Of a stretch of DNA of 64,000 bases, positions 4,565 to 54,525 are shown in pieces. This DNA is from a virus. The first letter of the stretch is position 1. Every line of letters starts with the position of its first letter. A program made the translations under genes and the position numbers. The stretch lies in IMG/VR virus record IMGVR_UViG_3300010396_000009, positions 11,232-75,231 of that record; one strand, 5' to 3'. The notes below the pieces were generated by a model that saw nothing but the letters and a program-made list of their open reading frames with translations, was not told the origin of the DNA and searched no databases.

Positions 4565-4567
4565 ACG

Positions 4568-5681: not shown

Positions 5682-5687
5682 GCTCCT

Positions 5688-27255: not shown

Positions 27256-28335
27256 TTACGAGTAGAGTCCAGAGAACTCCAAGCCAGTGTTGAGGTTCGT
27301 GCCGGTGAGCTTGATCAAGCAGGCGGGTCGCGTGCACATATAGAGCACATTGCTCTGAACGTGCATCATGATACCCTTGTCGAAGGGCAGCCTCTCCTGC
27401 TTCGCGTAGATCAGCTGACCGCGGGTATTGACCGTCTCGACGAAGTCGCCGGGAGCGACCACTTCAAGGAACAGGTCACGGGCGCCGGTCGGGAACGCGA
27501 TCGCCTGCGTAGTCGGAATGAATCGCGTGGTTCCGACGAATCCGCGATAGTTCTCCCAGGACACATCAGCGAAGTTGAATCCACCTTCCTGAGAGCCGCC
27601 GGGGATCTGGGTCTCGCGCAAGAAGCTGTTCTGCTGATAGTACTCGTACGCCTTGCGGACGGTGCCGTGGTGCACGAAGTTGTCCCAGAACTGGTTCCCG
27701 CAGATCACCTTGACTCCGGTGAACGGGGTGTTACCGAGGGCGACCTGCATCTGGCGGATGAGACCCTGGGCGAGCATCTTCATGTCGACCGTCGGGTTCG
27801 GTAACGCGTATGTCCCCGCGTCCGTGAAGTCAACAGTAATGCTCGTCTGCGAGATGCCGAAGTCGGTGAAGAAGTTCTCGACCGTGGAGCCGTCAGCGTC
27901 CAGGATGACGCCCGTGAGAGCGCCGATGCGGTGGTACTCCCAGGTGACCTCCTGATTGGCCTTCATCTGCTCGAGGCGATCGTTGACGATCTGTGAGAAG
28001 ACCTCGGTCTGGTCCTCGCTCCCGAAGGCTCGCTTGCCCTCCAGGTCCTCAGCGAGGAGCTCAAACCACTGAGGCATGTGAGGCACCTGGAACGCTCGCT
28101 CCTTGCGGCGAGGTTGGTGCATCGTGTTCTGCAGCGAGGAGCCGCGAGTCTGGGTCTGAACCAGCTGCAGGATGCCCTGGCGCTCTTCGATGACTGCATG
28201 CCTTGTCGTAATCGGGCGCTGCTGGAACAGCCCCATTTCTCCGATTCGACCTGGCATATACGGCAGCTTGTCGATCGCCAGCGTAAGACTCTGCAAATCG
28301 AACGGCGAGCCGTCGAATATGTCTAAGAGGGCCAT
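27256..28335 (-). CDS. Major capsid protein (lambda gpE family)
   Basis: LTLAIDKLPYMPGRIGEMGLF, TWEYHRIGALTG, QSNVLYMCTRP. Confidence 0.9.
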   Translation of the reverse strand: MALLDIFDGSPFDLQSLTLAIDKLPYMPGRIGEMGLFQQRPITTRHAVIEERQGILQLVQTQTRGSSLQNTMHQPRRKERAFQVPHMPQWFELLAEDLEGKRAFGSEDQTEVFSQIVNDRLEQMKANQEVTWEYHRIGALTGVILDADGSTVENFFTDFGISQTSITVDFTDAGTYALPNPTVDMKMLAQGLIRQMQVALGNTPFTGVKVICGNQFWDNFVHHGTVRKAYEYYQQNSFLRETQIPGGSQEGGFNFADVSWENYRGFVGTTRFIPTTQAIAFPTGARDLFLEVVAPGDFVETVNTRGQLIYAKQERLPFDKGIMMHVQSNVLYMCTRPACLIKLTGTNLNTGLEFSGLYS

Positions 28336-28398: not shown

Positions 28399-28965
28399 TT
28401 ACGTCGTCTGCGTTCCGATCGCCGCGGCAGCGGGCTCGGTCAGCATGTCGATGGGCGGATTCAAGGCCTGCAGTGAGGTGATGATAGTCGCGGCGGTATA
28501 CGCCACACCAGCGAGATCGGCAGCCTGAATCATTGATTGGTTGATCAGGGCGGGGCCACGAAACAAGATCGGATACTTGGCCGCGGTGATTGCGTTATTT
28601 GCGAGCGCCTCGGGGATATTCTGCGAGTCATCGCCAAGAAAGAGACCGACGACCGAAGCCTCGTCGCCGGAGTTTGCGGCTGTCCACTGGGTGGCGACTT
28701 TCTTAAGCGGAAGCCCGGCCTGAATTGCCCCAGCCGCGATGGAAATGCCAGACGTGTTTTTGATCGTCTGAGCCGTTCTTGTGTAGAGCTGATTCGGCTC
28801 CCAGCGCACGAGCTCATACGGTCGCACCCGGTCAGTGATCGGCCCCTGAGCCACGGCACCCAGCATACCGAGCGCAAGGATCGCCTCGGAGTACTCCGGA
28901 AAAATTGCGCATGCCAGCGCCATGATCGCGATGATAGCCAGCGTGGGCAGAAGCGAAAATTTCAT
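28399..28965 (-). CDS. Head decoration protein with a hydrophobic N-terminal leader
   Basis: Between scaffold and MCP; VRWEPNQLYTR...RGPALIN; start MKFSLL at 28965. Confidence 0.6.
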   Translation of the reverse strand: MKFSLLPTLAIIAIMALACAIFPEYSEAILALGMLGAVAQGPITDRVRPYELVRWEPNQLYTRTAQTIKNTSGISIAAGAIQAGLPLKKVATQWTAANSGDEASVVGLFLGDDSQNIPEALANNAITAAKYPILFRGPALINQSMIQAADLAGVAYTAATIITSLQALNPPIDMLTEPAAAAIGTQTT

Positions 28966-29014
28966 TTGTCGAGTCCCGTTTGTGAGTATAGAGTCGTGAG
29001 ATCGAATTAAGCGT

Positions 29015-30310
29015 TTACGAATTTCGCCGATGACGGGCAGCGTGCTGTGCGGCTCGTCGCTCGGCGTCCTTGACGATGGACGGCGTGCCGTTGTCACCAT
29101 GGTTAGGTGATTGCTGATGATTGGTTCGCTCTCCCGTCGAGGTGATCGGACTGTTCAGCGAGAGGGCTGCGACGATGTCGTCGAAGTCATCTCCTGTCTC
29201 GTTGGGATACATGGTCTCATGCGAGAGGGCGAAGGAAACGGCCTTCGGCGTCGCGTACTTTGCCTTGAGCTGCTTCATCACCGGGACCGAGATCTTCTTA
29301 CTGGTCACGAGACCCAGGAGCTCTTGTTCGCGAGCCTTGACCAGGCGATTCTGAAGGGACTTCGGAACGTCGAAGCTCATGGCCGGGGGAGGCTCGTAAT
29401 TGCGATCATGGGCTCTGTTGCGTCGCCCACCACCGAACTCATCACCCTCACCCTCGTCCTCGAAGACTTCAGGAGGAACCCCGGCGCCCATTCCCTCGGC
29501 CTCGGAGAGCTCCCCTTCCTCTTCCTCTTCCTCGAATTCAGGAAGCTCTTCTTCCTCACCCTCGCCGCCTTCGCCTTCACCTTCACCTGGAGGAGCGGAG
29601 TTGAAAGCTTGCTCGATGCACTCGCTGATCGCCTCGTCATCGGCCCCTTCGGGGCACTCAACTCCGAGCTTCTGAGCGAGATTAACAAGGGCCGGACTTG
29701 CCATATTATTTCCTTCTTCGTGATCGCAAGCGATGAATGAAAGCTCGATGCCTGATTGATTTGCTAACTGAGCCGCTACGTCAGAGAATTTACTCAGAGC
29801 TGGAACAACGGGATAATCCGTAATCGCCACGTGGCGAATTGGTCTAGCATAGCGCTTGCCGACGCCAGACGTAAATTCATGCGGCATGAATAGGGAAACG
29901 TCGCTCTCCCTAAACTGCTCCTTGTATTCTGGCCTTCGCCATTTTATGTAGGCGAATAGCGCCGGCTGACCTCGCCGATTTGGGTGCTCAGACGGCTCAA
30001 CGGCCATCTTGACCACGGTGCCTCGACGGGCCTCGGGGTCAGTAGTGTGACCGATAGGAACTGGTACTGGGATGCCGTCATGGGCCATCTGATTGAACGT
30101 GCGCACCCAGTGCTCGAGCTGGAACTCATCGACGGGAAGCTCGAATTGAGTCTCCCCGTTATCATCTACCTTGACAAAGGTTCCAGGGTACGCGAGCTCT
30201 TTTCTCGAGATAAGCTCAGGCTCATCGAGCCCGCAGGACGCGTCCACTGATAAGCAGACTGTCTTGGGAAGCTTTAGAAACCACTCAGTTCTGAGTCTAT
30301 TTTTGGCCAT
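29015..30310 (-). CDS. Mu-like prohead protease/scaffold (gpI-like)
   Basis: VPIGHT, VSLF, RHVAITDYPVVPAL; acidic scaffold C-terminal half. Confidence 0.8.
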   Translation of the reverse strand: MAKNRLRTEWFLKLPKTVCLSVDASCGLDEPELISRKELAYPGTFVKVDDNGETQFELPVDEFQLEHWVRTFNQMAHDGIPVPVPIGHTTDPEARRGTVVKMAVEPSEHPNRRGQPALFAYIKWRRPEYKEQFRESDVSLFMPHEFTSGVGKRYARPIRHVAITDYPVVPALSKFSDVAAQLANQSGIELSFIACDHEEGNNMASPALVNLAQKLGVECPEGADDEAISECIEQAFNSAPPGEGEGEGGEGEEEELPEFEEEEEEGELSEAEGMGAGVPPEVFEDEGEGDEFGGGRRNRAHDRNYEPPPAMSFDVPKSLQNRLVKAREQELLGLVTSKKISVPVMKQLKAKYATPKAVSFALSHETMYPNETGDDFDDIVAALSLNSPITSTGERTNHQQSPNHGDNGTPSIVKDAERRAAQHAARHRRNS

Positions 30311-30316
30311 GCTATG

Positions 30317-31006
30317 CTAAATATACCCTGTCACTAGTGCGCCCGCATTGAAACGAAATCCAGGGTCGACGTCCGGAGTTCCGATGAACGGCCGAGTCTT
30401 AGCCAATCGAGAGCCAAATCTGATCGGCCTACAGCGACAGCGACAATTCCACCCATTCGGGGTGAAATATGAGCGCCAGAACTTATGACGCTTGGGATAC
30501 CTGACGCCGTGAAGAGCTCTGTGACTCTTCCTGGCGTCTATCTTGGCGACGTACTCAAAGCCCCAAATACTGGGATCACTGTATCCCTGAATCCAGGTAG
30601 CCGCCGCATCAGCGATAGATGACTGAGTCCTGGCTACAGTCTGTATCAGAGACTTATCCTCGCCGTAGACACCAATTCTAGTGAGGGCCCTGCGAATATA
30701 CTGTAATCGCTTCGCCTCGGAGAGCTGTGAGGCTACTCGAATCGCCTTCAATAGATCAGCTCGCACGCGAGACATGTTCTCGTCTGTGATACTTCGCGCT
30801 ATCGAGCGAAACATCTCAGTGGCAGCTATCCTTTGGCGCTTGGGAAGCGATCTGAAGACCTTGATGCCATGATCCTGCGCCATCGCGAATACTTGGTGCT
30901 CGACTTCTGAGCAGTCGAGAGCATAGCCCACCGGATCAGAGGCCGCCTCCAGAGACCATGCGAAGTACCTGGAGGCGGCGATCGAAGATAGCTGATCTGG
31001 CGTCAT
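30317..31006 (-). CDS. Mu gpF/SPP1 gp7-like head morphogenesis protein
   Basis: EYVAKIDARKSHRALHG...PNGWNCRC, PDVDPGFRFNAG. Confidence 0.85.
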   Translation of the reverse strand: MTPDQLSSIAASRYFAWSLEAASDPVGYALDCSEVEHQVFAMAQDHGIKVFRSLPKRQRIAATEMFRSIARSITDENMSRVRADLLKAIRVASQLSEAKRLQYIRRALTRIGVYGEDKSLIQTVARTQSSIADAAATWIQGYSDPSIWGFEYVAKIDARKSHRALHGVRYPKRHKFWRSYFTPNGWNCRCRCRPIRFGSRLAKTRPFIGTPDVDPGFRFNAGALVTGYI

Positions 31007-40035: not shown

Positions 40036-41433
40036 TTATATCGAGTTAATACTAGCATGCCCGTTTCTCTCAGCTCCGTTTCTCTTGGCCATGAGATATC
40101 GTTGCTTGCGACTGAGGCTAGCTCGCATGACGGCCTGACCAGGCTGTTTCTGGATGCCCTTCACCTCAGGCGCGCCGAGCTGCTCTCGAATAGCAGCCCA
40201 GTCTAGGTGAGCCTGCTCTTGAGCCTGCCCAGCCTCTGTTCCCCAGTGCTTCTCATAGAGTCCCTTGATGAACGCTCGCTTCTCATCGACGAGCGGCGAA
40301 GCCGTGACCTTGACCTTGTCCACGTATCGAGGACCGTAATTCAGCTCAAGAAGAACATTGACCACCTGGCTATTCAGCAGGGCCATGATCTCCCTGTGAG
40401 TCATCTCCAGGTTATCGACCACGAAGTCAGCGTGTGCTTCGGCCTCTGCCTTGGTGCCGAATTGACCCTCCTGAATAGCTCGCTCAGGAAAGCCAAAGCC
40501 GCGGGCCTTTAGCACATCATGATACTTAAGGCGCTCGACGAAAGCGCCCTGCTGAGTCTGCGGTGATTGGAGCTCAACTCGCCATGCCGCGTTAGCTGGG
40601 TTGAAGTTATTCATATCATCCACCTGACCAAGGATAGAGCTCGGCACGGCGACCATGCCAGATGACTGCAGCGACTTGAGAATATTCGCCGCGATCACAG
40701 CATTATCTGTCTCACCAGTGACCGCTCCGGTGACGGGATCTTTCTGTATAGAGGTCCCCATTGGGTAATAGACGATCCAGTGTGACCCTGCGATCTTGAC
40801 GTCAAATCTCCTGGCCCCGTCATCGCACTCGAGCCAAGAGTCATAGGGTCTCTCGCACCTGCGCAAGAGCGGCTCGCTGTACCAGTTCGTGCCCTCAGCA
40901 TCACGGTATAAGCAGGCGAAGTCGCCCCTGTACAGATAGACCGGGTTTGGGTTCAACACATTGTGAATTGCGCTGTTTCGCACGCCGACCATATTGCCAT
41001 GATAGTCGACGAGAATAGTCGTAAGATCCTGAAGCAGTCCCTTAAATTTCTTCACGTAGAACATACCAGTGTCTTCGTGCTGCTCCTTCACTACTTCATA
41101 CGGCTGCCAGCCGAAGTCCAGAAATCCTCGCAGAGCGTCGCGCAGAAACTGAATTCGAAAAGGGACAGTCGATTGCTTGATGCAGAGCTCGGCATCCTTG
41201 AACTCCTCATGCTCGCACTCGACTGTCCACTCGGAGCCAAGCAAGGCAGCCTGATATATGTCGCGAAGCAGTCCCAGCGTTGGATCGCGGCGCATGAGAC
41301 GCACTTTGCGAAACCACTGAGAGGTGACTACCGGGTTGAGGGCCAGCACACCAGGTGGGACAAACCCATCGGGACCAGCGCCGACGAGAATCTGGGCTAC
41401 GGTCCTGGCTTGCTTTGGTTCTTTGTCAGCCAC
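40036..41433 (-). CDS. Portal protein (Mu gp29/DUF935-like)
   Basis: GWQPYEVV, GQFGTKAEAEAH, LNSQVVNVLLELNYG. Confidence 0.85.
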   Translation of the reverse strand: MADKEPKQARTVAQILVGAGPDGFVPPGVLALNPVVTSQWFRKVRLMRRDPTLGLLRDIYQAALLGSEWTVECEHEEFKDAELCIKQSTVPFRIQFLRDALRGFLDFGWQPYEVVKEQHEDTGMFYVKKFKGLLQDLTTILVDYHGNMVGVRNSAIHNVLNPNPVYLYRGDFACLYRDAEGTNWYSEPLLRRCERPYDSWLECDDGARRFDVKIAGSHWIVYYPMGTSIQKDPVTGAVTGETDNAVIAANILKSLQSSGMVAVPSSILGQVDDMNNFNPANAAWRVELQSPQTQQGAFVERLKYHDVLKARGFGFPERAIQEGQFGTKAEAEAHADFVVDNLEMTHREIMALLNSQVVNVLLELNYGPRYVDKVKVTASPLVDEKRAFIKGLYEKHWGTEAGQAQEQAHLDWAAIREQLGAPEVKGIQKQPGQAVMRASLSRKQRYLMAKRNGAERNGHASINSI

Positions 41434-42803
41434 TAGTCACCCTTGATCTCATGACCCTGGTTAAACGTCGCCGTTCCCACCTCGTGGGCGCCCCACTCCT
41501 GAGCTGCCCAGTGCTTGATCAGCTGCATCGTGTGCTCATCGCTGCACCGCACCGCTATGACGACCTTCGGCACGTCGAGGATCTTTCGAACGGCGACCTG
41601 AAGATCAACTCCGCCACGAGCAAATCTCTTCACGTCGCGAGAGAATTTCATACCGCGCTTCTCTGGGAGCGTGAACACGGCATTAAGGCCCATCGCCTCT
41701 CTTTGATGAGGTTTCACACGAGCGGTAGGCTCTAAAGGAGACATGTCACCTCTTGAGTTGAGCGCCCTGGCCTTGCTGCGCTTGGCGACGCCGTCGATAG
41801 AGTGCAGAACGGAGACATTATCGGTCTCGACGTTCACGAGCACCCACTGTCGCCTATCCTCTGGGTCTGGATTTGGATAGCGCTGAAGCTGCACCACCAG
41901 TTTGATGTCAGGGAAACCGTACTTCAGGTCCATTATCGAGTCGCGCATCTCGGCCGCATTGCCGGCGGGGACCACGTAGTGGGCCCTCGGAAGAACCTGG
42001 CGCTGGTGCTTGGCTGCACGAGCCTTGGCGAACCTATCCTTGGGCTCACCAGCTAGTGCTACTGAGCCCGGCAAGCTTTTTTTTCGCGCTGCTTTTGAGT
42101 CTTGAGAACCAAGAACGACGTTATCAACTAGGCTCAGCGAGAAGCTCGCGAATCGCCCTTGAGCGTCCCTCTCGTACTGCCGCTGGGAGACGTGGGTCTT
42201 CCCTTGGCGGTCGAGCGCCTCGTATCTCGTGCGAACCCCTGCATGATGATGCCAAAGCCTCTTGTGCTTTGCCGCGATTGCCTTGGTCCCCGGAAAAGTG
42301 CTCTTCTTGAACTTCTCGTAGCCAGAGCGGTGAACGTCCTCGTGCGTCTTGTGATGCTTAATGATATCCTTCACCGAGATCATGTTGTTCTCGGAGATCG
42401 GTGGAAGGTCGTTGTCTCGCCGCACCTGATTGCCGTATCCTCTGCTAAGATCGCTCTTTGTCCTCTTGAAGAGCCTGCCGCTCACCAGGTCCTTGGTGTA
42501 CTGGATAGGGTGCATGACGGCCTGCTTCGTGTTCTTGATCGTCGCGGATACGAGCGGAGACACATCGCACGCTACACCCTCCATGGAGAGCGCGTAGAGC
42601 TGCTTCCTGGTCAGTGGGCGACCCTGCTCAGCGAGCGAAAGGTAATACGAGGCGGCTCGGCTGATCGGCTTTCGTCGGCGACCTTTTCGCTTTACCTTGT
42701 AGGGCAATTTTTTCCCCTTCGGAGTCTTTTTCTCGAACTCGTGGGCGATCTCGGGATGATGAATGTGCATGTAGGCTCGCTGCGCCTGAGATACAAAAGG
42801 CAT
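41433..42803 (-). CDS. Basic mosaic protein between terminase and portal (probable capsid-internal protein)
   Basis: MPFVSQAQRAYMH...KTPKGKKLP N-terminal module, ERDAQGRF motif, two C-terminal alpha/beta repeat modules. Confidence 0.65.
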   Translation of the reverse strand: MPFVSQAQRAYMHIHHPEIAHEFEKKTPKGKKLPYKVKRKGRRRKPISRAASYYLSLAEQGRPLTRKQLYALSMEGVACDVSPLVSATIKNTKQAVMHPIQYTKDLVSGRLFKRTKSDLSRGYGNQVRRDNDLPPISENNMISVKDIIKHHKTHEDVHRSGYEKFKKSTFPGTKAIAAKHKRLWHHHAGVRTRYEALDRQGKTHVSQRQYERDAQGRFASFSLSLVDNVVLGSQDSKAARKKSLPGSVALAGEPKDRFAKARAAKHQRQVLPRAHYVVPAGNAAEMRDSIMDLKYGFPDIKLVVQLQRYPNPDPEDRRQWVLVNVETDNVSVLHSIDGVAKRSKARALNSRGDMSPLEPTARVKPHQREAMGLNAVFTLPEKRGMKFSRDVKRFARGGVDLQVAVRKILDVPKVVIAVRCSDEHTMQLIKHWAAQEWGAHEVGTATFNQGHEIKGD

Positions 42804-44113
42804 TATGCCGCTCCCACCAAAACACTCGGAACCACGTCGCTCGTAGGAACAACTGGCCACACTCGATGAATAATATACCCAAGGGCGTCAGTGATGTGAC
42901 CAATGTCATCATGATCATCGACGTCGCGACTGCCGGGCTCATATGCCCTGGTCACCAGATCATGAAGCAGCCATTTGCACCGGGGATCAACGAAGACTCG
43001 TCGCTCTCCCAGGGCGTTGCAGAAGGACGCATTGCATGCCGAGAACCGCTCATGAATCGCGGGGTTCTTCGCAGGATAGAAGATCTTCTTTCTAAGGAAA
43101 CGCTGATCATTCTGGATATGTGCATAGTCGCTCTGAACAGCGCTAGTCTTCCTGGCCTTGGATGACGCATCGCCGAAGAAGATCCAGCCTGATTGGTGCA
43201 CACTTGGCCTATTATAGCGCTTATCTAATTCATTTAACGCAGCCGGCGTGTTAGTGTTGCGAATCCAGATCTCGTCGATGACATTGAGCTTCGGCCTAGA
43301 CGTCGTGTGCTGCTGGCAGATGACCCACGCCATAGGGTCTACGTTGAAGTCAGATCCGATGATCAGTGGCTTACTTGGGTCATACTTTGCTGATTCTATG
43401 TTAAGCTTCTCATCGAACGCGTAGAACACCAGCCCAGATGTTCCCTGCCAGATGGCCCCGAACTGCTCGTCAAAATCCTTCTGATCAAGACTTCTGGCGG
43501 CGTCAGCTATTTCCTCCTCGCTCAGGATGTCAGCGCTTGGCCAGGTATAGCTCTCGTATCTCGGGCCAAGCTTTCCAGAACCGTAGTCCTCCCAGCACTT
43601 CTTGAACTCGGAGGCACCTGGTCCAAACCGCTTGGGAACACCGATACGCCAACACCAGCCAGTTTTATGAGATAACGTCGGGCGAACCGAGCGATCGAAC
43701 GAGCCGGGCCATTGATCGCACGATTCATCGATGACCCCGCCGTCCCACTGAACGCCCTCGATTCTAGCCGGCTCATTCATGCCGACGAGGAAGAGCTTAG
43801 ATCCGAAGCGAGTCTTGATCGTCAGATCACTCTCGCGTATGTCATCAGGCGAGGCTATCCACTCCTTTGGAATCAGGGCCTTGATCTTCTCCCAGGCGAC
43901 TAATTTAGCCTGCGCCCTAGTGGGATACGCCAGGAAATAGATCGGATCAGGCCAGGGCTTCTTAACCGGGAGAAACCTTACCAGTCGTCGCCTAGATAGC
44001 TCCGTCTTGCCAGAGCCTCGGCCGCAAGCCAGCGCGACGAAGCGCGCCTTGGTGCGCCACACCCTAGTCTGAGCCGGGTGATAGCGAAGCGGAAACCAAG
44101 CCGGGGTGAGCAT
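42803..44113 (-). CDS. terL: Terminase large subunit
   Basis: Walker A CGRGSGKT, Walker B GVIDE, nuclease GSDFNVDP and HITDALGY. Confidence 0.95.
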   Translation of the reverse strand: MLTPAWFPLRYHPAQTRVWRTKARFVALACGRGSGKTELSRRRLVRFLPVKKPWPDPIYFLAYPTRAQAKLVAWEKIKALIPKEWIASPDDIRESDLTIKTRFGSKLFLVGMNEPARIEGVQWDGGVIDESCDQWPGSFDRSVRPTLSHKTGWCWRIGVPKRFGPGASEFKKCWEDYGSGKLGPRYESYTWPSADILSEEEIADAARSLDQKDFDEQFGAIWQGTSGLVFYAFDEKLNIESAKYDPSKPLIIGSDFNVDPMAWVICQQHTTSRPKLNVIDEIWIRNTNTPAALNELDKRYNRPSVHQSGWIFFGDASSKARKTSAVQSDYAHIQNDQRFLRKKIFYPAKNPAIHERFSACNASFCNALGERRVFVDPRCKWLLHDLVTRAYEPGSRDVDDHDDIGHITDALGYIIHRVWPVVPTSDVVPSVLVGAA

Positions 44114-44574
44114 TACTTCGCCTTAAGTTGCTCTCTTAAGGCTTTGTACCGCTTCATCCGTTCAGGTCGCACAGGGTGCAGTGACTGCAGATCCTGGATC
44201 GCCAAGGCGACCTCGCGACCAACGCCTCGCCCGGGATCAAGCATCAGGTCATGGCTCATCTTGATGAGGTCCTTGACCACGTGAACTCCCTCGGTCGGAG
44301 CGAACATCTCACCGAAGAAAGAGTCAAAGATGAGCTGCTGAAACTGCAGGACCTTTTCCCTGCGCCCGGTCACGGCGATCTTGCAGTCGGCGTAAAGCTT
44401 CGCATCCAGGCCGTGCTCCTTGGCTAGTTTGAGCGCCGGCTCGATGTTGTCCCGCTGATTCACGGAGATGATCTTCGTGAACTGATCATCGGCGCTGTCC
44501 ATGGCCAGGGAGAAGTCCCGGCGCACCTGACCACGGCGAAGCATTCGATTAGCTGCTTTGAGCATGGGATTCAT
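44113..44574 (-). CDS. Hypothetical protein containing one alpha/beta repeat module
   Basis: Overlaps the giant gene; basic leader ending DFSLAM. Confidence 0.65.
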   Translation of the reverse strand: MNPMLKAANRMLRRGQVRRDFSLAMDSADDQFTKIISVNQRDNIEPALKLAKEHGLDAKLYADCKIAVTGRREKVLQFQQLIFDSFFGEMFAPTEGVHVVKDLIKMSHDLMLDPGRGVGREVALAIQDLQSLHPVRPERMKRYKALREQLKAK

Positions 44575-47500
44575 TCTGAAGCACCTTTACGTTAATGGCG
44601 TTATTCTGCTCAGCGATTTTCTTTACCAATTCGGGATCGCTGGTAAGCACCAGGACCCGGTCGTTGTCCTTCTTCTGACCCTTGATTCCGTTCTCCCTGA
44701 GCTCCGTCAAGAATTTACCCAGAAGGTATGCGTTGGCCGCGAACGCTACGACCATGTAGGTCAGATGGGCGGCTCCCTTGACTGCTGCAGGGAAAGCTAG
44801 CTCATGCGAAGCAGCTGCCTCCTTGACCAATTTTTTAACTCTCGCGGTCCTGGCTCGTCGCTTGGCGATCTTCTCAATTTTCTCTGGTGAGCCCTGCGCC
44901 ACGACCTCGCCGTTAGGCTTTACTTTTGCCAAGATTCCGCTGGAGATCAGGTCAGCCGCGACCGTAGTCGCCACGTACGGCCCCACATCCTTGATAAGCC
45001 ACCAGCCGACACCCTTCAGGAACGGCAGGGCTGCGATGGCGGGGAAGGCCATTTCTTTGCCCTTCTTTTTCTTCATCTCCTTGATTTTGCCATGGAGCGG
45101 CTTCTCGAGGTTAGTCACCGGGGGTTTCTTCTTGGGTTTCTGGACAGGGACTCCGCCGTTTGACACCACAGCTGCTCGCTGCTGAGCCTTCGGCATTACC
45201 TTTGAGGCGGGCTTAGGCGCAGGTTTAGGCGCAGCGATAGGGGCCGGCGCAGCTCGCCTCACAGGCCGCTTCTTTGTAACTCCGCTCTTAAGAATCTTGC
45301 CTCGAAAAGCCGCGACGACGGCGTCTAATAAGCGCATCAGGGCGGCTCTCACCACCACGTGCACCCTGCCGTAGCCATCGGCGAACGAGTCAAAGATCCC
45401 GGCCTTGGCGAGCCATCGCATGGCCGCGGTCGCCCCGACGATACCGCCAAAGTCAATGATCAGCTCATGAAACACGTCGCCAATCGGTTTCTCGTGGAAG
45501 TTAGGATCAGTGCGCCGCGGGATCGGACCGGTTTCTTCATGTGGCGTGAACGCGCTGGGTTGCACCCCTGGACCAGCGCCGGGCGCCTGGTGCTTAGATC
45601 CAAATGTTCCAGTGGCCGTCGGATGCCTGGTGATAATTCCGCCGGCGGCAAATTCATTGACGGCAGGCTCGATGTCAGAGCCCTTGACACCCAGCACGAC
45701 GATCTTCTTACCCTTCATGTACAGGTTCTGGAGCGGCTTGAAGTGATACTTGTTCACCAGCTGCTGGTACGCCGCCTTGGCCGAGGCGACGCTCTTGCAG
45801 TCAAACTCCCAATTCATCGGGGACTCTTCGGCCATGAATGAGGCGGCCTTGACCTGGCCGCTGTGCTCGTCAATGATCTCCTTGACCTGATTCTCCTTGC
45901 TCGGGTCAGTGGTCTGGGCGAAGATCTTGTTGCCGATCACCTTCGCCTGGACACCCAGCTTCTTGATCAGCTGATACGCCCCGACTGCCAGAGCCCCGGT
46001 GGCGAACGTGGCGGTGATCGCCAAGAGCGCCTCACCCTTGGTCCTGGGGATGAAGCCCTTCACACCCTGCCGGGATGCCTCCTTGACAGCGCCCGGCAGG
46101 GCGCGGGCTATTCTCCCGACCTTGCCGGGCATAGAGCCTACTGTTTCTTTTGCATGCTTGGCTCCCTTGCCAAGCTTTTGCAGCTTGACCCTGGTCTCGT
46201 GCGGCAGCATGTCATGCACCATACTAGAGGGCAGGAACTCGGTGCCCGGAAGCACCATTCGCACCCCGGCCTCGAATTTTCTGTCCATCTCCTTAAAGAT
46301 TCGCCCCATGATCGCGTCCGTTTTCTCTGTGGCCTTGCACAGGATGCTCTTTTCGCCGTTGCGACGAGCGGCGAGTCCCTTCGATCTGAGATAGGCGAGG
46401 CCAGCGGCGACCGCGAGCGAATTGGCGAAGACAAACTCGACCACTTCTGCCGGACCAAGACCCATCGCATATGACATCGCCACGTCCACCCTGGCCCCGC
46501 ATCGCTGAGCGTAGCGACGCACAGCCTCCTGTCCTCGGTCGCCGTAGGCCCGAATCTTGATCTTTCGCTTCTGCATGCCGCGACCGAGCGAGGAGAGGAT
46601 CTCGCAGCCGAAGCCGCGCAATTTTTGAGCGAGCCACCCAACGTACTTCGGACTCACGGACGAGAGCACGAATTCGTAAGCCCGACCCATGTCCATCTGG
46701 AACGACGCCGCGACCTGAGATGAATTAGTCGGCTCCATCTTGCCGCCATACTTTTTGGTGATCTCCTTCACCTCGGTCTTCTTGTCGCCGCGAAGCTTCT
46801 TCACCAAGACATAGGCGCCGTACGCGGCAGCCGAGATACCAGCGGCTGTCAGGGCAACAAGGGCTGCAGACGCCGCAGCATTGGCACCGAACTTTAGAAG
46901 CATGGAGCCGATCGCCATATCAGCGGCGTCTTGGCCGGACTTAAATGCCTTTGCTCTTGTGTTCTCGTGAGCGAACTTCATCACACCGACCTGGCCGAAG
47001 TCGGGCGGGATCGGCGAGCCCTTGAACTCCTGCACGCACTTGTTGATAACTCGGCGCTCTCCAGTAGCGGTGAGCTTATGTGAGTGAGGAAACGGTCGCT
47101 TCACCTTGACACCGTTCTTGCGGAGCCACAGAGACGCCTCGTCTGCCAGGTCCTCGCCCTCAAAGTAGAGCTGCATTGCCTCTACGCCGCTGTTCCGATC
47201 CTTGGCGCCGGGCTCTGTGGGTTCACTTGAGTTTGGCCTGTACGCACTCTGCTGCTGGGCTGGCATCTGCATAGGAGGAATCACCACTCCGTTTCCGTTC
47301 ACCCCTGAGGGATAATTGCGTCGCATCATCTGCTTCTCATCATAAAGCGCCATCATTGCGTCAACCATGCTCATCCCCCTCATCCCGCCGTAGTTAAATG
47401 GTCGGCCGACATCGCGCATCTCATGGATCTTCTTGCTCGGCCGAAAATGCACATAGAAAGTCTCGGGCTTGAAGACGTCGTCCTTGGTCCTGGGATTCTT

Positions 47501-48748
47501 CTTCCACGCAGATTTTCTTCTGCGCATCTCAAAGATGCCGAAGTTCCGGAGCTCAACTCGCTGACCGTTTAATAGCGCCAGCGCGATCTTATCAAGGACA
47601 GCAGAGACAACTGGCCTTGTGCGCGCCTGTGCAAAGCCGAGCTCTTCAGAGATAGCAAGGTACAAAGCGCGCTTAGTCAAGGTCGAGCCAGCGACGGAAA
47701 CGTCGAAGTCCATGCTAATCGGCGTAAGCGATGCAGCGTACCTCAAGCCAGGTGGTTCAACGACCTTATAGTGAATAATGCCCATCTTATGAAGCTCTTG
47801 CATCACCTTGTCATGAATGAGAAGATGCACCACGGAGGGACTAGCATGCGGATCTTTTTTCCACATCTCAGTCGCTATTGGCTTCAGATGTTTCTTGTAC
47901 AGCTTTGTTATCAGCTTAGCGATTTTCTCTGAATCTTGAGGATAGTTAGGTCCAGGTTTGGCCAGGTGAGAGACACCCTTATGATTAACTGCCTCGATCG
48001 ACCTAACTCCGGGCCAGCCGACGAAAACTTGAATATCCTGGGTGCTGAATGTGCCGCCGGCTCTCTTAGAGTTACTGGGGTGATTATGAATTATCGCGTA
48101 CTTATTCTTCTTGTCTATGGCGCCAGGAACACTTAAGTGTACGCGTCCCTTGCTGCCGTCGAACCTATGAATCACGTCTCCCTCATGATTCACTATGACC
48201 GAGTGTTCCTTTTCGCTTTTCTTGCCCTTTCTGAGCACGCTTTGCCTAGCTTTGTTTGCACCCTCAGTAAAGTGATTCTTGAATCCACTAATAGAGTGCT
48301 CAAATGCGAACGCCGGCCACTGTCCAGTCATGTTCCCGGTCATGTCTCTTCGCCTGTCGGGAAACCTCATATTTCTCTTATAGGCTCTCTTGCGAGCCTG
48401 GATCGCCGGGTCAGGGTTCTCGATGGGGCTTATGGCGCTCCCAGTGCAGCAGGGTTCGCCAGTGTTCTGCACAGTCGAGTCTATAACATGCGTCACCTTC
48501 CCCTTATACGCCTTAACAGCCTGGCGAAGAAATGAGATAAAGGTCTCATGCGAGTGCATGTATCGCGGGGCACCTTCAGAACGATCCGGCATACGAATGT
48601 GAAGCTCGAGCTCGCGCTCAGAGACCCTGTCCATTTTCAGGGGAGCCGTACCAGCGATCTTAGCCTGCATCCAGTCGATGAACTGCTTAAGAGCGCCCGG
48701 TGACCTGAATATCATGGTCAGGTGAATCGGCAGCTCGTGAGTCTTCAT
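44549..48748 (-). CDS. 1399-aa multidomain (polyvalent-type) protein: JAB/MPN domain, HU/IHF domain and about 10 small alpha/beta modules
   Basis: E...IHNHP...FSTQD (JAMM); LTKRAL...VELRNFGIFE.RRRK....NPRT...F.PSK (HU/IHF, about 47417-47683). Confidence 0.8.
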   Translation of the reverse strand: MKTHELPIHLTMIFRSPGALKQFIDWMQAKIAGTAPLKMDRVSERELELHIRMPDRSEGAPRYMHSHETFISFLRQAVKAYKGKVTHVIDSTVQNTGEPCCTGSAISPIENPDPAIQARKRAYKRNMRFPDRRRDMTGNMTGQWPAFAFEHSISGFKNHFTEGANKARQSVLRKGKKSEKEHSVIVNHEGDVIHRFDGSKGRVHLSVPGAIDKKNKYAIIHNHPSNSKRAGGTFSTQDIQVFVGWPGVRSIEAVNHKGVSHLAKPGPNYPQDSEKIAKLITKLYKKHLKPIATEMWKKDPHASPSVVHLLIHDKVMQELHKMGIIHYKVVEPPGLRYAASLTPISMDFDVSVAGSTLTKRALYLAISEELGFAQARTRPVVSAVLDKIALALLNGQRVELRNFGIFEMRRRKSAWKKNPRTKDDVFKPETFYVHFRPSKKIHEMRDVGRPFNYGGMRGMSMVDAMMALYDEKQMMRRNYPSGVNGNGVVIPPMQMPAQQQSAYRPNSSEPTEPGAKDRNSGVEAMQLYFEGEDLADEASLWLRKNGVKVKRPFPHSHKLTATGERRVINKCVQEFKGSPIPPDFGQVGVMKFAHENTRAKAFKSGQDAADMAIGSMLLKFGANAAASAALVALTAAGISAAAYGAYVLVKKLRGDKKTEVKEITKKYGGKMEPTNSSQVAASFQMDMGRAYEFVLSSVSPKYVGWLAQKLRGFGCEILSSLGRGMQKRKIKIRAYGDRGQEAVRRYAQRCGARVDVAMSYAMGLGPAEVVEFVFANSLAVAAGLAYLRSKGLAARRNGEKSILCKATEKTDAIMGRIFKEMDRKFEAGVRMVLPGTEFLPSSMVHDMLPHETRVKLQKLGKGAKHAKETVGSMPGKVGRIARALPGAVKEASRQGVKGFIPRTKGEALLAITATFATGALAVGAYQLIKKLGVQAKVIGNKIFAQTTDPSKENQVKEIIDEHSGQVKAASFMAEESPMNWEFDCKSVASAKAAYQQLVNKYHFKPLQNLYMKGKKIVVLGVKGSDIEPAVNEFAAGGIITRHPTATGTFGSKHQAPGAGPGVQPSAFTPHEETGPIPRRTDPNFHEKPIGDVFHELIIDFGGIVGATAAMRWLAKAGIFDSFADGYGRVHVVVRAALMRLLDAVVAAFRGKILKSGVTKKRPVRRAAPAPIAAPKPAPKPASKVMPKAQQRAAVVSNGGVPVQKPKKKPPVTNLEKPLHGKIKEMKKKKGKEMAFPAIAALPFLKGVGWWLIKDVGPYVATTVAADLISSGILAKVKPNGEVVAQGSPEKIEKIAKRRARTARVKKLVKEAAASHELAFPAAVKGAAHLTYMVVAFAANAYLLGKFLTELRENGIKGQKKDNDRVLVLTSDPELVKKIAEQNNAINVKVLQNESHAQSS

Positions 48749-48769: not shown

Positions 48770-48808
48770 CAGAGACTAGTGAACGCCTAAGCAATTCACT
48801 AGTCTCTG
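48770..48808. terminator. Perfect 14-bp hairpin (terminator or end of a structured RNA)
   Basis: CAGAGACTAGTGAA / TTCACTAGTCTCTG; no clear U-tract. Confidence 0.5.
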
Positions 48809-50691: not shown

Positions 50692-51645
50692 TTAAAGTGT
50701 TACTCCGGTTACTCGACGAACGACGTGGCTGTAGGACATCTTATGATCACAGCTATTACAGTTCGGCAAATCGCGCCTCTTGTCCTGCAGATGGGCGCGG
50801 TAGCGAAACATGATCTCTGAGTTCCATACCTGATCAATAGTTTGATGATTCAAATCACCGATGAATACCGCATCGTCCTGTGTCTGGTCAATCGCGCAGC
50901 AGAGCGGCACTCGCCCATCATATTGGATGACGAGATGTCGATGCGGCCTGGCGCAGTGCGTCTGCGGGGCGCTTGCGGCGTGTCCCTTTGAGTGGAAGCT
51001 GTCGAACGAGTGAGCGTTCTCTGGGCGATCACTGCGCATGTCACTGATGCAAAGAAAGCGACCGCGAGAATTATGACGGCGATACTTATGATCAGTACGA
51101 CACCACAGATCATGAGCTCGCCCAGTGCTGTCAATGCTCTCATACAGTTCCTTCTGCTTGATCCCGGCATCACCAAGATCATAGATGTTTAGGTTGATCA
51201 CGTTGACGCCAGAGTCAAAGATATCGGTGATCCGGTCAACCATCGCTATTATTTGGTCTCGCGGGCCTCTGGTGATCGTGTCTCCGTTCGTCGAGACATA
51301 GATAGTGCAGTCAGGGCAAGCTCGGCGAAGACGCATAGCCCAGCTAGAATCATCAGACGAAAACAGTCGCTTGTCAAGAGTAGGCTCGTTTAGTAAAAAC
51401 AATTGGATGCATCCATCGAACTGATGCTCGCGCAGCTGATCACAGATGCTCGTGAACAGCTCCTCGCTCATCAATTTTTGATTGGGCCTGGGAATGTCAC
51501 CACCGAATCCGCTGATGGGACAGAAACTGCAGCGTCGATTGCAGTAGGCGCTCGTCTCAATACTGAAGCGATTTGGCCAGGGATAGAACTCCCCTTTTGA
51601 GAAGTCCACCGGCGGCTCGTGCATCACGTCGAAAAATGAAGCCAT
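50692..51645 (-). CDS. Radical SAM/SPASM domain protein
   Basis: CNRRCSFC, NEP, STNG; SPASM-type C..P....I.YDG.V..CC...C..C. Confidence 0.85.
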   Translation of the reverse strand: MASFFDVMHEPPVDFSKGEFYPWPNRFSIETSAYCNRRCSFCPISGFGGDIPRPNQKLMSEELFTSICDQLREHQFDGCIQLFLLNEPTLDKRLFSSDDSSWAMRLRRACPDCTIYVSTNGDTITRGPRDQIIAMVDRITDIFDSGVNVINLNIYDLGDAGIKQKELYESIDSTGRAHDLWCRTDHKYRRHNSRGRFLCISDMRSDRPENAHSFDSFHSKGHAASAPQTHCARPHRHLVIQYDGRVPLCCAIDQTQDDAVFIGDLNHQTIDQVWNSEIMFRYRAHLQDKRRDLPNCNSCDHKMSYSHVVRRVTGVTL

Positions 51646-53323: not shown

Positions 53324-53593
53324 TTAATACCCTTTTTCGAAGATCATCTCTGTCGTGGTAAGCATTCCGATAAAGCGCCAGCCATACTTAATTCGAAGCA
53401 TGGTCAGAGCCATGGCGACTCGCTGAGTATAGGAGTGCTCAGTGGGGTCTCCCATTAGTGGGACTCCAACGTTCAGTGTCGAGATAACACCATAGCCATA
53501 GATAACACCATAGCCATAGAATGTCCTACCCTCTAAGTTATCTATTTGACACTTGTCCAGCTCATCGACTATCTTCTTAAGATTGTTGTTCAT
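53324..53593 (-). CDS. Hypothetical protein with an 18-bp tandem duplication (YGYGVI x2)
   Basis: Start MNNNLKK coupled to the thyX stop. Confidence 0.55.
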   Translation of the reverse strand: MNNNLKKIVDELDKCQIDNLEGRTFYGYGVIYGYGVISTLNVGVPLMGDPTEHSYTQRVAMALTMLRIKYGWRFIGMLTTTEMIFEKGY

Positions 53594-54525
53594 TCTGGTG
53601 CGCACTCGTTCTGAAACGTCTTCCTGTACTGCCACCAACCGCGGAAGTTTCCACTGGTCTTGACTTCGCTCATCGCCTGCGCCACGTGCTCGGTGGGAGC
53701 CCAGTGGCCGAAGCCAGAGCCGCGGCGAAGCTTTGAGGCTAGCTCCAGATCCTTGCGCCAGTCCCTGATACCGTCGTGCGTGAGATAACTGACGCGGGCC
53801 ACGCGAGCAGCTGATACGGCGCACATGAACTCTTCAATCAACGCGCCGGAGTCGCCAGCAAGTCCCTTGTCGCACGCGATCTGCGAAATCGGGAACCCGT
53901 CGAAGCACTTGTCACTGGAGTCGAATGCGGCACTCATCTCCTCACGAAGCTTTTCCTCGTCTACGCCTGTAACGTACGGCCGGTGCCACTCGCCGGTCTC
54001 CCGCGGTAGCGGGTTGCTGGCGAGCATCGCTTCGCGCCACATGTACGCGATCTTCGCAATGTGCGGCTCCGCGTCCTCGTGGCACCTCAACCTGAAGAAG
54101 TTCTGCCAGTCGGTGCCCGTGACGATGACCATGATCCACATCCAGGGCTCGACTATGCGGTTGCATAGTGACTTGTGCAGCCCGCGACTGCTCATGGCCC
54201 TGGCCCATGCTACCGCGTCGTCGCGGGCCATGAGCCAGTCCCGCTGGCAGTTGTGGGTGTCGCCAAGCGATAGCTCCGCGCCCTGCTGCATGCCCTTAGC
54301 CTCGGAACCCCACCGGATCGGGATCACGGGGTCTTCCTCGACCTGCCGGAGCATCTTCGCCAGGGGGATAGCACGGCTGCTCGCGGATGAGCGTGACAGC
54401 GCCCTGTGTGTCAGCAGCTCGCTGTGCACGAACCGCGGATACGTGAGCACCCCGGTAGTCAAGCGAACACCACACGGAGCGATGCTGTCAAGTAATACCT
54501 CAGCTTTGTAAGCCATTCTAATCAT
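53590..54525 (-). CDS. thyX: FAD-dependent thymidylate synthase ThyX-like
   Basis: PRFVHSELLTHRALSRSSASSRAIP, HKSLCNR, NFFRLRC, ARVARVSY, HWAPTEHVA. Confidence 0.85.
   Translation of the reverse strand: MIRMAYKAEVLLDSIAPCGVRLTTGVLTYPRFVHSELLTHRALSRSSASSRAIPLAKMLRQVEEDPVIPIRWGSEAKGMQQGAELSLGDTHNCQRDWLMARDDAVAWARAMSSRGLHKSLCNRIVEPWMWIMVIVTGTDWQNFFRLRCHEDAEPHIAKIAYMWREAMLASNPLPRETGEWHRPYVTGVDEEKLREEMSAAFDSSDKCFDGFPISQIACDKGLAGDSGALIEEFMCAVSAARVARVSYLTHDGIRDWRKDLELASKLRRGSGFGHWAPTEHVAQAMSEVKTSGNFRGWWQYRKTFQNECAPE

What the first reader, a model, noticed from the sequence alone, without database searches (positions are those of the whole stretch)
44549..48748. Putative capsid-packaged polyprotein of small effector domains
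Seen: 1399 aa made of discrete ~70-200 aa units (JAB/MPN, HU/IHF and about 10 alpha/beta modules). Unit boundaries repeatedly end in a similar motif: AFAF, SMDF, GMSM, MKFA, AASF, AMSY, AASF, EMAF, ELAF. It lies just upstream of terL in the head operon and is very basic. Known: prohead proteases process internal head proteins, and phage polyvalent proteins carry anti-host domains. Inference: one precursor is packaged, cut by the Mu-like protease into about 10 small proteins and ejected with the DNA. This is the top candidate for an undescribed system here.
Basis: partly seen in the sequence, partly recalled or inferred. Interest (0 to 1): 0.85.

Follow-up and report, generated by a model that had tools for sequence, protein, structure and literature searches.

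The report
Phage cargo polyprotein with protease-type joints
A 75-kb soil phage encodes, next to its DNA-packaging genes, a very basic 1399-residue chain of about a dozen small swappable modules. Its joints carry the same short peptide signal that marks the domain borders of the phage's own head-maturation protease, so it is probably loaded into the capsid and cut into pieces there, though no cut has been measured.

Summary
The ORF is real. It lies on the minus strand (48748->44549), encodes 1399 aa and has a net charge of +95. It sits upstream of a 153-aa ORF and TerL in a complete 75-kb siphovirus with a Mu-type head module.

Confirmed features:
- a complete HU/IHF domain;
- at least four ferredoxin-like beta-alpha-beta-beta-alpha-beta domains;
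- a recurring junction motif, small-S/A-(F/Y/M)-small-(F/M/L), for example AASF, AMSYAM, EMAF.

The motif is the top de novo motif in the six-member family (LLR 197 against 109+-4 in shuffles). It is enriched in an independent homologue (12 against 2.6). Module gains and losses between homologues, and gene starts in relatives, fall on it.

The JAB/MPN call rests on a sequence signature only; no profile or fold supports it.

New here: the same motif sits at conserved domain borders of the phage's Mu-gpI-type protease-scaffold protein and its 31 aligned homologues (26 hits against 5.4 expected). This ties the giant protein to the head protease.

Packaging, cleavage and ejection remain unmeasured. 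This is a new variant of the known phage polyvalent/cargo proteins. This scan has noted the same theme, with other motifs, on other DNA.

The parts
44549..48748 (-). Giant gene, 1399 aa (P0001), net charge +95; identical protein on record from three assembly sources
48461..48736 (-). Residues 5-96: N-terminal ferredoxin-like domain, 39% identical to the N-terminus of homologue P0003
   Evidence: AF2 pLDDT 60-86; VIA Z 8-9 to ferredoxin-like folds; blastp
48302..48313 (-). Junction motif 1, AFAF (residues 146-149)
   Evidence: P0003 has AIAFDF here and lacks the next module
47720..48301 (-). Residues 150-343: module found only in P0001, with a RadC/JAB-like signature HNHPS...FSTQD (222-238); identity unproven
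   Evidence: absent from P0003; PF14464 and PF04002 no match; pLDDT<50 for residues 150-269
47705..47716 (-). Junction motif 2, SMDF (345-348); its Met aligns with the start codon of homologue P0002
47420..47680 (-). Residues 357-443: complete HU/IHF DNA-binding domain
47366..47377 (-). Junction motif 3, GMSM (458-461)
47003..47185 (-). Residues 522-582: ferredoxin-like domain shared with P0003 (61% identity), P0002, P0007 and the L011 gene
   Evidence: AF2 pLDDT 75-91
46973..46984 (-). Junction motif 4, VMKF (589-592)
46700..46711 (-). Junction motif 5, AASF (680-683), after an Ala/Gly-rich hydrophobic-helix module (about 605-650)
46460..46480 (-). Junction motif 6, AMSYAMG (757-763), conserved as EASYAMS in P0003
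45836..45847 (-). Junction motif 7, AASF (968-971), directly before the confident domain 975-1046; its codons differ from those of motif 5
45611..45826 (-). Residues 975-1046: ferredoxin-like domain
   Evidence: AF2 pLDDT 76-89; VIA Z 8.8
45281..45472 (-). Residues 1093-1156: ferredoxin-like domain of moderate confidence
45044..45055 (-). Junction motif 8, EMAF (1232-1235), at the end of a Pro/Lys-rich linker and before a hydrophobic helix
44792..44803 (-). Junction motif 9, ELAF (1316-1319), before the C-terminal hydrophobic-helix module
44113..44574 (-). 153-aa ORF between the giant gene and TerL (possibly the small terminase subunit; no family match); one motif, RDFSLAM
42803..44113 (-). 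Terminase large subunit
   Evidence: phrog_2, 4.8e-30
41433..42860 (-). 475-aa second motif-bearing protein between TerL and portal (RAASYYL, RFASFSL, RGMKF); its N-terminal MPFVSQAQR domain heads the giant gene of relative L011
40036..41433 (-). Portal protein (Portal_Mu)
29015..30310 (-). Mu-gpI-type head protease (1-~195; invariant H88, S139, H160), acidic linker and scaffold domain. It carries cargo-type motifs PAMSFDV (309-315) and KAVSFAL (356-362) at conserved family positions
30317..31006 (-). MuF-type minor head protein
   Evidence: PF04233, 5.7e-11
27256..28335 (-). Major capsid protein (lambda gpE-like); no motif
   Evidence: PF03864, 9.6e-81

Best explanation
P0001 is a late-expressed phage 'polyvalent' cargo protein. 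It strings together about 12 small modules that fold independently: 4-6 ferredoxin-like domains, one HU/IHF DNA-binding domain, one module of unknown function with a RadC-like signature, and several Ala/Gly-rich hydrophobic-helix modules. Basic or Pro-rich linkers join them.

Each joint carries a short alternating motif, small-S/A-(F/Y/M)-small-(F/M/L). The same motif marks the N-tail, the end of the protease domain, the start of the scaffold domain and an internal scaffold site in the phage's Mu-gpI-type (assemblin-like, His-Ser-His) protease-scaffold protein.

The most likely mechanism is as follows. The chain enters the procapsid. The head protease cuts it at these joints, by analogy with herpesvirus assemblin perhaps at Ala|Ser. 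The basic DNA-binding and hydrophobic fragments stay with the packaged DNA and leave with it at infection.

Shown: the modular anatomy, the motif and its statistics, module exchange at the motif, the motif's presence at protease-scaffold domain borders, and the genomic position beside terminase and portal.

Inferred: packaging, cleavage, the scissile bond, ejection and any effect on the host.
For: (1) Anatomy.

(2) Motif statistics. It is the best de novo motif in six family members (LLR 197.5 against 109+-4). It is enriched in independent P0002 (12 against 2.6, p<=0.0002). In the window only P0001 is strongly enriched (11 against 2.9). A strict form is nearly absent from related phages that lack giant genes.

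(3) Joints are module borders. The 150-343 module is inserted between AFAF and SMDF, where P0003 has the single motif AIAFDF. P0003 has about 490 extra residues after its HU domain. The start codons of P0002 and P0007 align with the motif. The four motifs covered by the better model lie in pLDDT<50 linkers, and motif 7 abuts a confident domain.

(4) Selection acts on the protein, not the DNA: the two AASF copies use different codons.

(5) Link to the protease. The 431-aa protein has homologues carrying PF10123 and invariant H88, S139 and H160. A regex fixed beforehand gives 26 hits against 5.4+-2.3 expected in 32 homologues. The hits cluster at alignment positions ~17, ~180 and ~310, and V-[SAG]-F-A-L-S is conserved at ~356.

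(6) Context. It is the first gene after a hairpin and gap, directly upstream of the terminase and portal genes. The syntenic neighbour in L006 carries an ADP-ribosyltransferase domain right after its motif (PF03496, 2e-6).

(7) Precedent. Polyvalent proteins are predicted or shown to be packaged, and P1 DarA and DdrB are processed and packaged (PMC5512222). Giant-phage head proteins are cut at a protease motif (PMC10052503).
Against: There is no direct evidence of virion association or cleavage. The specificity of Mu-type head proteases is not known to me and was not found in the searched literature. The major capsid protein shows no motif or propeptide, so no proven maturation site carries the motif. 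The motif is degenerate and alternates like an amphipathic beta-strand, so it could be a structural or docking element. Most of the C-terminal model is low confidence, so 'in a linker' is weakly tested there. Counts in homologous sequences are inflated by shared descent. No Pfam LPD, MuF, peptidase or recognised effector domain is present in P0001 itself. The family is tiny: 5 hits among 1.84 billion representatives.
Confidence: 0.45

Rival explanations
1. The motif is a docking peptide, not a cut site. On this reading it is a scaffold-mimicking, encapsulin-like cargo-loading peptide, repeated many times, that binds the inner capsid surface or the scaffold core. The protein is then packaged essentially intact.
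For: The motif alternates small and hydrophobic residues, as encapsulin cargo-loading peptides such as GSLxIGSL do (own knowledge). It occurs inside the scaffold domain, conserved as V-x-F-A-L-S. Multivalency would suit loading of a long chain.
Against: In the protease-scaffold family it lies at four domain borders, including the N-tail and the end of the protease domain. That pattern is typical of processing sites (R and M sites of assemblin, PMC4498786) rather than of a single capsid-binding tail. In the cargo it lies at nearly every joint.
Confidence: 0.15
2. The protein is not a capsid cargo. It is a cytoplasmic late protein, for example a DNA-bending or condensing helper of packaging in a phage with no recognisable small terminase, or a host-takeover protein. 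The motif is then a structural N-terminal strand of the repeated module, or a fossil of former gene ends left by gene fusion.
For: HU/IHF domains assist terminases (lambda, own knowledge). No TerS family match was found nearby, and in L011 the giant gene abuts TerL. The motif often lies 3-10 residues before strand 1 of a ferredoxin-like domain and could pair with it (sequences). Junctions coincide with start codons in relatives.
Against: Most TerL relatives lack the gene altogether, so it is accessory and not a core packaging factor. The motif also precedes HU and helix modules, so it is not tied to one fold. Leu replaces Met at the motif in many protease-scaffold homologues, so it is not a start-codon relic there. 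This rival leaves unexplained why the motif is shared with the protease-scaffold borders.
Confidence: 0.25
3. The modules are made as separate proteins by internal translation starts at the Met residues of the motifs.
For: Many motifs contain or abut Met. P0002 and P0007 start at the aligned Met. Mu gene I has a nested scaffold gene Z (own knowledge).
Against: Shine-Dalgarno-like sequences are not enriched before internal Met codons (23% against 29% in controls). Several motifs lack Met (AFAF, AASF, ELAF).
Confidence: 0.05

Closest known systems
Polyvalent proteins of phages and conjugative elements (Iyer, Burroughs, Anand, de Souza, Aravind 2017, PMC5512222)
   Same: Many unrelated small domains in one polypeptide. 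Encoded beside a portal-terminase packaging module. Extensive domain shuffling between relatives. Relatives and neighbours carry ART and ParB-like (DGxHR) modules. Predicted capsid packaging and processing.
   Different: P0001 has none of the Pfam LPD or other named polyvalent domains and no built-in metallopeptidase. That paper does not describe a junction motif: 'linker' and 'interdomain' have no occurrences in its text. Processing is proposed here to be by the head protease.
Phage P1 Dar proteins (DarA, DdrB), as summarised in PMC5512222
   Same: Accessory proteins that are proteolytically processed and incorporated into the head to act with the injected DNA.
   Different: No sequence relationship was found. 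The P1 proteins are separate genes, not one chain with repeated joints.
Head proteins of T4 and of giant phages (SPN3US, phiKZ) cut by the prohead protease at a short motif (PMC10052503, PMC5694885)
   Same: A protease-defined short motif marks internal or ejection proteins that are cut inside the head.
   Different: Those motifs end in Glu (own knowledge for T4 and phiKZ) and belong to T4-type proteases of large myoviruses. Here the protease is Mu-gpI-type, the phage is a 75-kb siphovirus, and the motif is small-S-aromatic-small-hydrophobic.
Herpesvirus assemblin-scaffold polyprotein with R and M sites (PMC4498786)
   Same: The protease-scaffold fusion has His, Ser, His catalytic candidates in the same order. 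Conserved short sites lie at the end of the protease domain and within the scaffold. The assemblin sites read x-x-Ala|Ser or Thr, resembling AAS-F and GAS-M.
   Different: The relationship is only distant and fold-level (inferred). The scissile bond here is unknown. No cargo polyprotein is known in herpesviruses.
phi24B gp47, a 2811-aa large polyvalent protein detected in virions (bioRxiv 10.64898/2026.04.10.717836)
   Same: A very large multi-domain protein found by proteomics in virions, invisible in cryo-EM and proposed to be an ejection protein.
   Different: gp47 has LPD and MuF-C peptidase domains. No repeated junction motif is reported in the passages read.

Membership tests
Phage polyvalent proteins (Iyer et al. 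2017) | Two to fifteen unrelated domains in one polypeptide of a phage or mobile element | tested here: met
   HU plus at least four ferredoxin-like cores plus other modules
Phage polyvalent proteins (Iyer et al. 2017) | Encoded in a phage with a portal-terminase packaging system | tested here: met
   TerL and Portal_Mu lie directly downstream
Phage polyvalent proteins (Iyer et al. 2017) | Mosaic domain content between relatives | tested here: met
   P0001, P0003, P0002 and the L011 gene share some modules and differ in others
Phage polyvalent proteins (Iyer et al. 2017) | Carries recognised effector or LPD domains (ART, ParB, RadC, MPTase, LPD) | tested here: not met
   P0001 matches only HU in Pfam at E<=1. 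ART (PF03496) is found only in the syntenic neighbour gene of L006. ParB-like DGxHR motifs appear only in relatives, by eye.
Phage polyvalent proteins (Iyer et al. 2017) | Packaged in the virion and delivered with the DNA | not testable with these tools
   Needs virion proteomics
HU/IHF (PF00216) | Profile match over the whole domain, and the fold | tested here: met
   8.3e-17 over profile positions 1-87 of 90; Foldseek to IHF and HU, target TM 0.64-0.74
JAB/MPN, RadC clade | Metal-binding signature E...HxH...S-x-x-D | tested here: met
   E189, H222-N-H224-P-S and S235-T-Q-D238 read directly in the sequence
JAB/MPN, RadC clade | Profile-level similarity to Prok-JAB or RadC | tested here: not met
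   PF14464 and PF04002 give no match in the genome at E<=10, while the control genomes ring. The Atlas gives Prok-JAB only as a 0.85 lead carried by 13% of one cluster.
JAB/MPN, RadC clade | JAB fold | tested here: inconclusive
   Residues 150-269 modelled at pLDDT<50. No homologues were found to deepen the alignment.
Mu-like prophage protease I (PF10123), for 29015-30310 | Profile match | tested here: inconclusive
   There is no direct Pfam hit. Eight homologues at E 1e-30 to 1e-82 carry precomputed PF10123. Atlas features score 0.94, with TM 0.64-0.68 to Mu-like_Pro clusters.
Mu-like prophage protease I (PF10123), for 29015-30310 | Conserved catalytic His/Ser residues; position between MuF and capsid genes; C-terminal scaffold part | tested here: met
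   H88, S139 and H160 invariant in 32 sequences; gene order portal...MuF-protease-233 aa-MCP
Prohead-protease-processed head proteins (T4 internal proteins, phiKZ/SPN3US type) | The junction motif equals the experimentally known cutting rule of the phage's protease | not testable with these tools
   No cutting rule is known for Mu-type proteases. The only support is the shared motif at protease-scaffold borders.
Encapsulin-type cargo-loading peptides | The short peptide binds the inner face of an HK97-fold shell protein | not tested
   Resemblance recalled from memory only

The most novel reading that the evidence does not exclude
A Mu-type (assemblin-fold) head protease reads a small-S-aromatic-small-hydrophobic code. 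The phage uses this code both for the protease's own release and scaffold sites and as universal joints of exchangeable capsid-cargo polyproteins. On this reading a small siphovirus loads one chain and dices it in the head into more than ten pieces (an HU-type DNA binder, ferredoxin-like modules and hydrophobic helices) that are delivered with the DNA. Modules can then be swapped in evolution simply by recombining at joints.
Probability: 0.35. Interest if true: 0.75.

Novelty: new variant of a known kind. Interest (0 to 1): 0.6.

Why it matters
If the joints are cut by the head protease, three things follow. It would give the first cutting rule for the widespread Mu-gpI protease family. It would show that capsid-cargo polyproteins are not confined to jumbo or T4-type phages. 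It would also define a short portable tag that might be used to load chosen proteins into phage heads. The module set (HU, ferredoxin-like domains and hydrophobic helices, with ART and ParB-like modules in relatives) would be a source of unstudied early-infection factors. The claim is directly testable by virion mass spectrometry, or by co-expression with the protease.

Tried and rejected
1. Full-length homologue searches were empty: phage GenBank tblastn, the word-indexed search and IMG/VR with P0001, P0003 and P0007. Relatives came only from the exhaustive HMMER search of residues 445-1399 (5 hits) and from TerL-anchored loci.

The contigs of P0003, P0006 and P0007 could therefore not be read. 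L011's record is not held.

3. An unconstrained EM motif search drifted to composition motifs. It was repeated with a cap on the site frequency. Single tripeptide counts (ASM 4 against 0.45) are not significant after multiple testing.

4. JAB checks gave nothing: Pfam, the PF14464 and PF04002 genome searches, a PDB sequence search and a homologue search.

5. PF10123 searched directly in the genome gave nothing.

6. Complex prediction of the protease domain with residues 662-700 returned no verdict (score 0.00, controls not run). This counts neither for nor against binding.

7. A Shine-Dalgarno check at internal Met codons showed no enrichment.

8. The sequencing-run search listed only the probable source soil metagenome and no RNA holder.

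9. A literature search for a Mu-type protease cutting rule found nothing usable.

10. Kyte-Doolittle 'TM-like' segments at 767-787 and 1129-1147 turned out to be core strand and helix of small domains, so they are not claimed as membrane helices.

11. GGTATATT upstream of three motif-bearing genes was considered as a shared promoter. Two of those copies encode Gly-Tyr-Ile at the end of the preceding gene, so this was left as an observation.
Full report
**What is there.** The finding's coordinates hold a single ORF on the minus strand, ATG 48748 to stop 44549, of 1399 aa. The window is part of a complete 75,231-bp IMG/VR virus record with direct terminal repeats. All its genes run on the minus strand. 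The protein has 221 Lys+Arg against 126 Asp+Glu, net +95. The identical protein is on record from JGI, ENA and Logan assemblies, so the long frame is not a one-off assembly artefact.

**Genomic context.**
- The phage is a siphovirus: its tape measure gene lies at 22342-24687, and the DNA polymerase and primase genes lie at 2103-10442.
- It has a Mu-type head module: Portal_Mu at 40036-41433, MuF at 30317-31006, a 431-aa gene at 29015-30310 and a lambda-E-type capsid protein at 27256-28335.
- TerL lies at 42803-44113.
- A 153-aa ORF with no family match separates TerL from the giant gene.
- A 475-aa ORF lies between TerL and the portal gene.
- Upstream of the giant gene there is a gap with a perfect 14-bp hairpin.

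**Domains.** Pfam and PHROGs recognise only a complete HU/IHF domain, residues 357-443 (8.3e-17). Foldseek confirmed the fold on the AlphaFold2 model.

AlphaFold2 was run on two halves with shallow family alignments.
- Confident, separate cores lie at 5-96, 357-439, 522-582 and 975-1046.
- A moderate core lies at 1093-1156.
- Two helices lie at 270-325.
- Everything between these is below pLDDT 50.

The small cores are beta-alpha-beta-beta-alpha-beta, generic ferredoxin-like folds (VIA Z 7-9, no specific family). Several are weakly similar to one another (Z 3-5.6 against shuffles). The rest of the C-terminal half consists of Ala/Gly-rich hydrophobic helices, each followed by short beta-alpha elements, and of Pro/Lys-rich linkers.

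- Prok-JAB and RadC profiles find nothing in the genome at E<=10, although they ring in the control genomes.
- There is no PDB sequence match and no database homologue.
- The language-model atlas gives unnamed clusters at 0.93, with Prok-JAB only as a 0.85 lead.
- The region did not fold confidently.

It therefore remains a lead.

**The family.** An exhaustive HMMER search of residues 445-1399 against 1.84 billion representatives gave five hits:
- P0003 (1832 aa, 42% identity in shared parts);
- P0006 and P0007 (622 aa each);
- two fragments of the same or a near-identical protein.

TerL-anchored loci added two more members.
- P0002 is 1078 aa (L006:2559-5795); TerL in that locus is 69% identical to the window's.
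- A gene of about 1394 aa in L011 (5809-9993) abuts a TerL that is 60% identical.

Most other TerL relatives have no such gene, and there TerL is followed directly by the portal gene. The giant gene and the 475-aa gene are therefore accessory insertions flanking TerL in one sub-clade.

Module content differs between members.
- P0003 shares the N-terminal domain, HU, the 522-582 domain and the C-terminal half.
- P0003 lacks residues 126-343 of P0001.
- P0003 has about 490 extra residues after HU, including a DGRHR (ParB-like) stretch.
- L011's gene starts with the MPFVSQAQR domain that, in the window, heads the 475-aa protein.
- In L006 the gene just upstream of P0002 carries an ADP-ribosyltransferase domain (PF03496, 2e-6, above the Pfam cut-off).

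**The motif.** A pattern built from them occurs 13 times in P0001 (4.0 expected). In P0002, which played no part in defining it, it occurs 12 times against 2.6 expected (p<=0.0002, 5000 shuffles).

A de novo EM search over six family members, with the site frequency capped, returned the same thing as the best motif. It is an alternating small/hydrophobic heptad, A-S-[AMFY]-[SA]-[FMAY]-[ASGD]-[AFML]. Its LLR is 197.5, against 109+-4 (maximum 118) in 20 shuffled sets.

In plain terms the motif reads small-S/A-(F/Y/M/H)-small-(F/M/L). Examples are AASFQM, AMSYAM, EASYAMS, GASMAF, SASMGF, GASYAFG and KEMAF.

- Within the window only P0001 is strongly enriched (11 against 2.9), with single hits in the flanking 153-, 475-, 119- and 149-aa proteins.
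- A strict form is almost absent from related phages that lack giant genes. In L006 and L011 it is concentrated in the giant genes and their neighbours.
- The two AASF copies use different codons, so the conservation is at the protein level. It is not a recombination linker in the DNA.

**Are the motifs at module borders?** Several lines say yes.
- The P0001-specific module 150-343 sits exactly between AFAF and SMDF, where P0003 has the single motif AIAFDF followed by the same DV-V-G start of HU.
- The start codon of P0002 aligns with the Met of ISMDF. P0007 starts (MSLSM) where P0002 has GASMSL.
- In the better AlphaFold2 model all four motifs fall in pLDDT<50 linkers. Motif 7 lies directly before the confident 975-1046 domain.
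- The ART domain of the L006 neighbour begins right after its GMAFA motif.

The caveat is that most of the C-terminal model has low confidence, so for five motifs 'linker' rests on comparison rather than structure. In addition, the motif often lies 3-10 residues before strand 1 of a ferredoxin-like domain and could pair with it.

**Link to the head protease.** The 431-aa gene gets no direct Pfam or PHROG hit. Other evidence identifies it.
- The atlas places its first 200 residues with Mu-like_Pro clusters (0.94; ten of the ten best named hits; TM 0.64-0.68).
- A homologue search gave 46 relatives, eight of which carry a precomputed PF10123 (for example P0017, 43% identity, 1e-82).
- In an alignment of 32 of them, H88, S139 and H160 are invariant. 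This is the His...Ser...His order of the assemblin-type triad (PMC4498786; the equivalence is my inference).

An acidic linker and a C-terminal scaffold part follow the protease domain.

The cargo-type motif occupies conserved positions of this family:
- near the N-terminus (GSFALS in seven members);
- at the end of the protease domain (IAAS-FELSL);
- at the start of the scaffold part (PPAMSF/PSMSF/PSLGF, in about twenty members);
- about 70 residues before the C-terminus (V-[SAG]-F-A-L-S-[HLM]-E).

The strict regex, fixed earlier from the cargo proteins, scores 26 hits against 5.4+-2.3 expected, clustered at three of these columns.

Shared descent inflates the count. The informative point is the location. 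These are the borders at which assemblin-type protease-scaffold fusions process themselves: the R site after the protease domain and the M site near the scaffold C-terminus, reading x-x-Ala|Ser or Thr (PMC4498786). Leu often replaces Met at the scaffold-start site, so the Met is not there as a nested start codon.

**Interpretation.** The best-supported reading is that P0001, and probably the 475-aa protein, is a member of the phage polyvalent/cargo class (PMC5512222). Its joints mimic the protease-scaffold's own inter-domain sites. On that reading it is taken into the procapsid and cut there by the Mu-type protease.

I put about 0.65 on capsid association and about 0.45 on the full reading, which includes cleavage at the motifs. 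By analogy the scissile bond may be Ala|Ser in the AAS-F and GAS-M forms; this is untested.

Three rivals remain.
- The motif may be a multivalent docking peptide, like the scaffold or encapsulin cargo-loading peptides.
- The protein may be cytoplasmic, with the motif a structural strand or a relic of gene fusion.
- There may be internal translation starts, though no Shine-Dalgarno signal supports this.

None of the modules except HU has an assigned function, so 'effector domains' is not established for P0001 itself.

**Comparison with what is known.** Polyvalent proteins, the processing and packaging of P1 DarA and DdrB, and T4 Alt are described in PMC5512222. Protease-motif-defined cutting of head and ejection proteins is documented in the SPN3US and phiKZ group (PMC10052503, PMC5694885). 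A large polyvalent protein has been found in phi24B virions (bioRxiv 10.64898/2026.04.10.717836).

Several things differ here:
- the Mu-gpI-type protease;
- the small siphovirus;
- a motif of a different chemical type;
- its one-to-one match with conserved protease-scaffold border sites;
- a module set dominated by ferredoxin-like domains and an HU domain, without any LPD or peptidase domain.

This scan has already noted the same theme, with other motifs (LSSG, ESLxE, L-x-K|S/A-E and others), in other genomes. I did not check those notes.

**Verdict.** This is a new variant of a known kind, of moderate to high interest because it is cheaply testable.

Noticed in passing
window 41433-42860 (-); L011:11344-13671; L006:7880-9379: A second motif-bearing multi-module protein sits between TerL and the portal gene in the three phages that have a giant gene. 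Its joints often read R-D-x-x-G-[KR]-F-A-S-F. The window's copy shares its N-terminal MPFVSQAQRxxMH domain with the start of L011's giant gene. Relatives without giant genes have TerL directly followed by the portal gene.
   Followed up: partly
window 29015-30310 (-) and alignment A5: The protease-scaffold family has invariant H88, S139 and H160 and four conserved motif positions. Seven homologues also have a G-S-F-A-L-S site near their N-terminus, which suggests removal of an N-terminal tail.
   Followed up: partly
window 48770-48808 (-): A perfect 14-bp inverted repeat (CAGAGACTAGTGAA...TTCACTAGTCTCTG) lies about 20 nt upstream of the giant gene's ATG, in the only sizeable gap of the region. 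It is a possible terminator or regulatory hairpin ahead of the late operon.
   Followed up: no
window 26489, 30320, 39629, 42872, 48755, 49726 (all on the - strand): GGTATATT occurs six times on the coding strand (0.68 expected). Three copies lie 4-9 nt before a start codon (the giant gene at 48748, the protease gene at 30310, and a GTG 4 nt after the 39629 copy); a fourth lies 11 nt before the listed GTG (42860) of the 475-aa ORF. Two copies also encode G-Y-I at the end of the preceding gene (TerL, MuF), so the meaning is unclear.
   Followed up: partly
window 28399-29100 (-): The 233-aa ORF between the protease and capsid genes overlaps the protease gene by 86 nt. From its internal Met it reads like a lipoprotein signal (MKFSLLPTLAIIAIMALAC). 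Only residues 98-233 are conserved in relatives, so the true start and role (decoration protein?) are uncertain.
   Followed up: no
L006:1341-2549 and L006:5792-6526: The neighbours of the L006 giant gene are themselves multi-module. A 402-aa protein has an ADP-ribosyltransferase domain (PF03496) between two motifs and a C-terminal DGNH (ParB-like) stretch. A 244-aa protein between the giant gene and TerL has a similar C-terminal stretch.
   Followed up: partly
L006:6540-7845: TerL of L006 is split into two frames (244 aa and 173 aa). This is a frameshift, a sequencing error or an intervening element.
   Followed up: no
window 50692-51645 and 53590-54525 (-): Upstream early or middle genes include a radical-SAM-like protein (weak PHROG hit) and a thymidylate synthase (phrog_85, 3e-55).
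   Followed up: no
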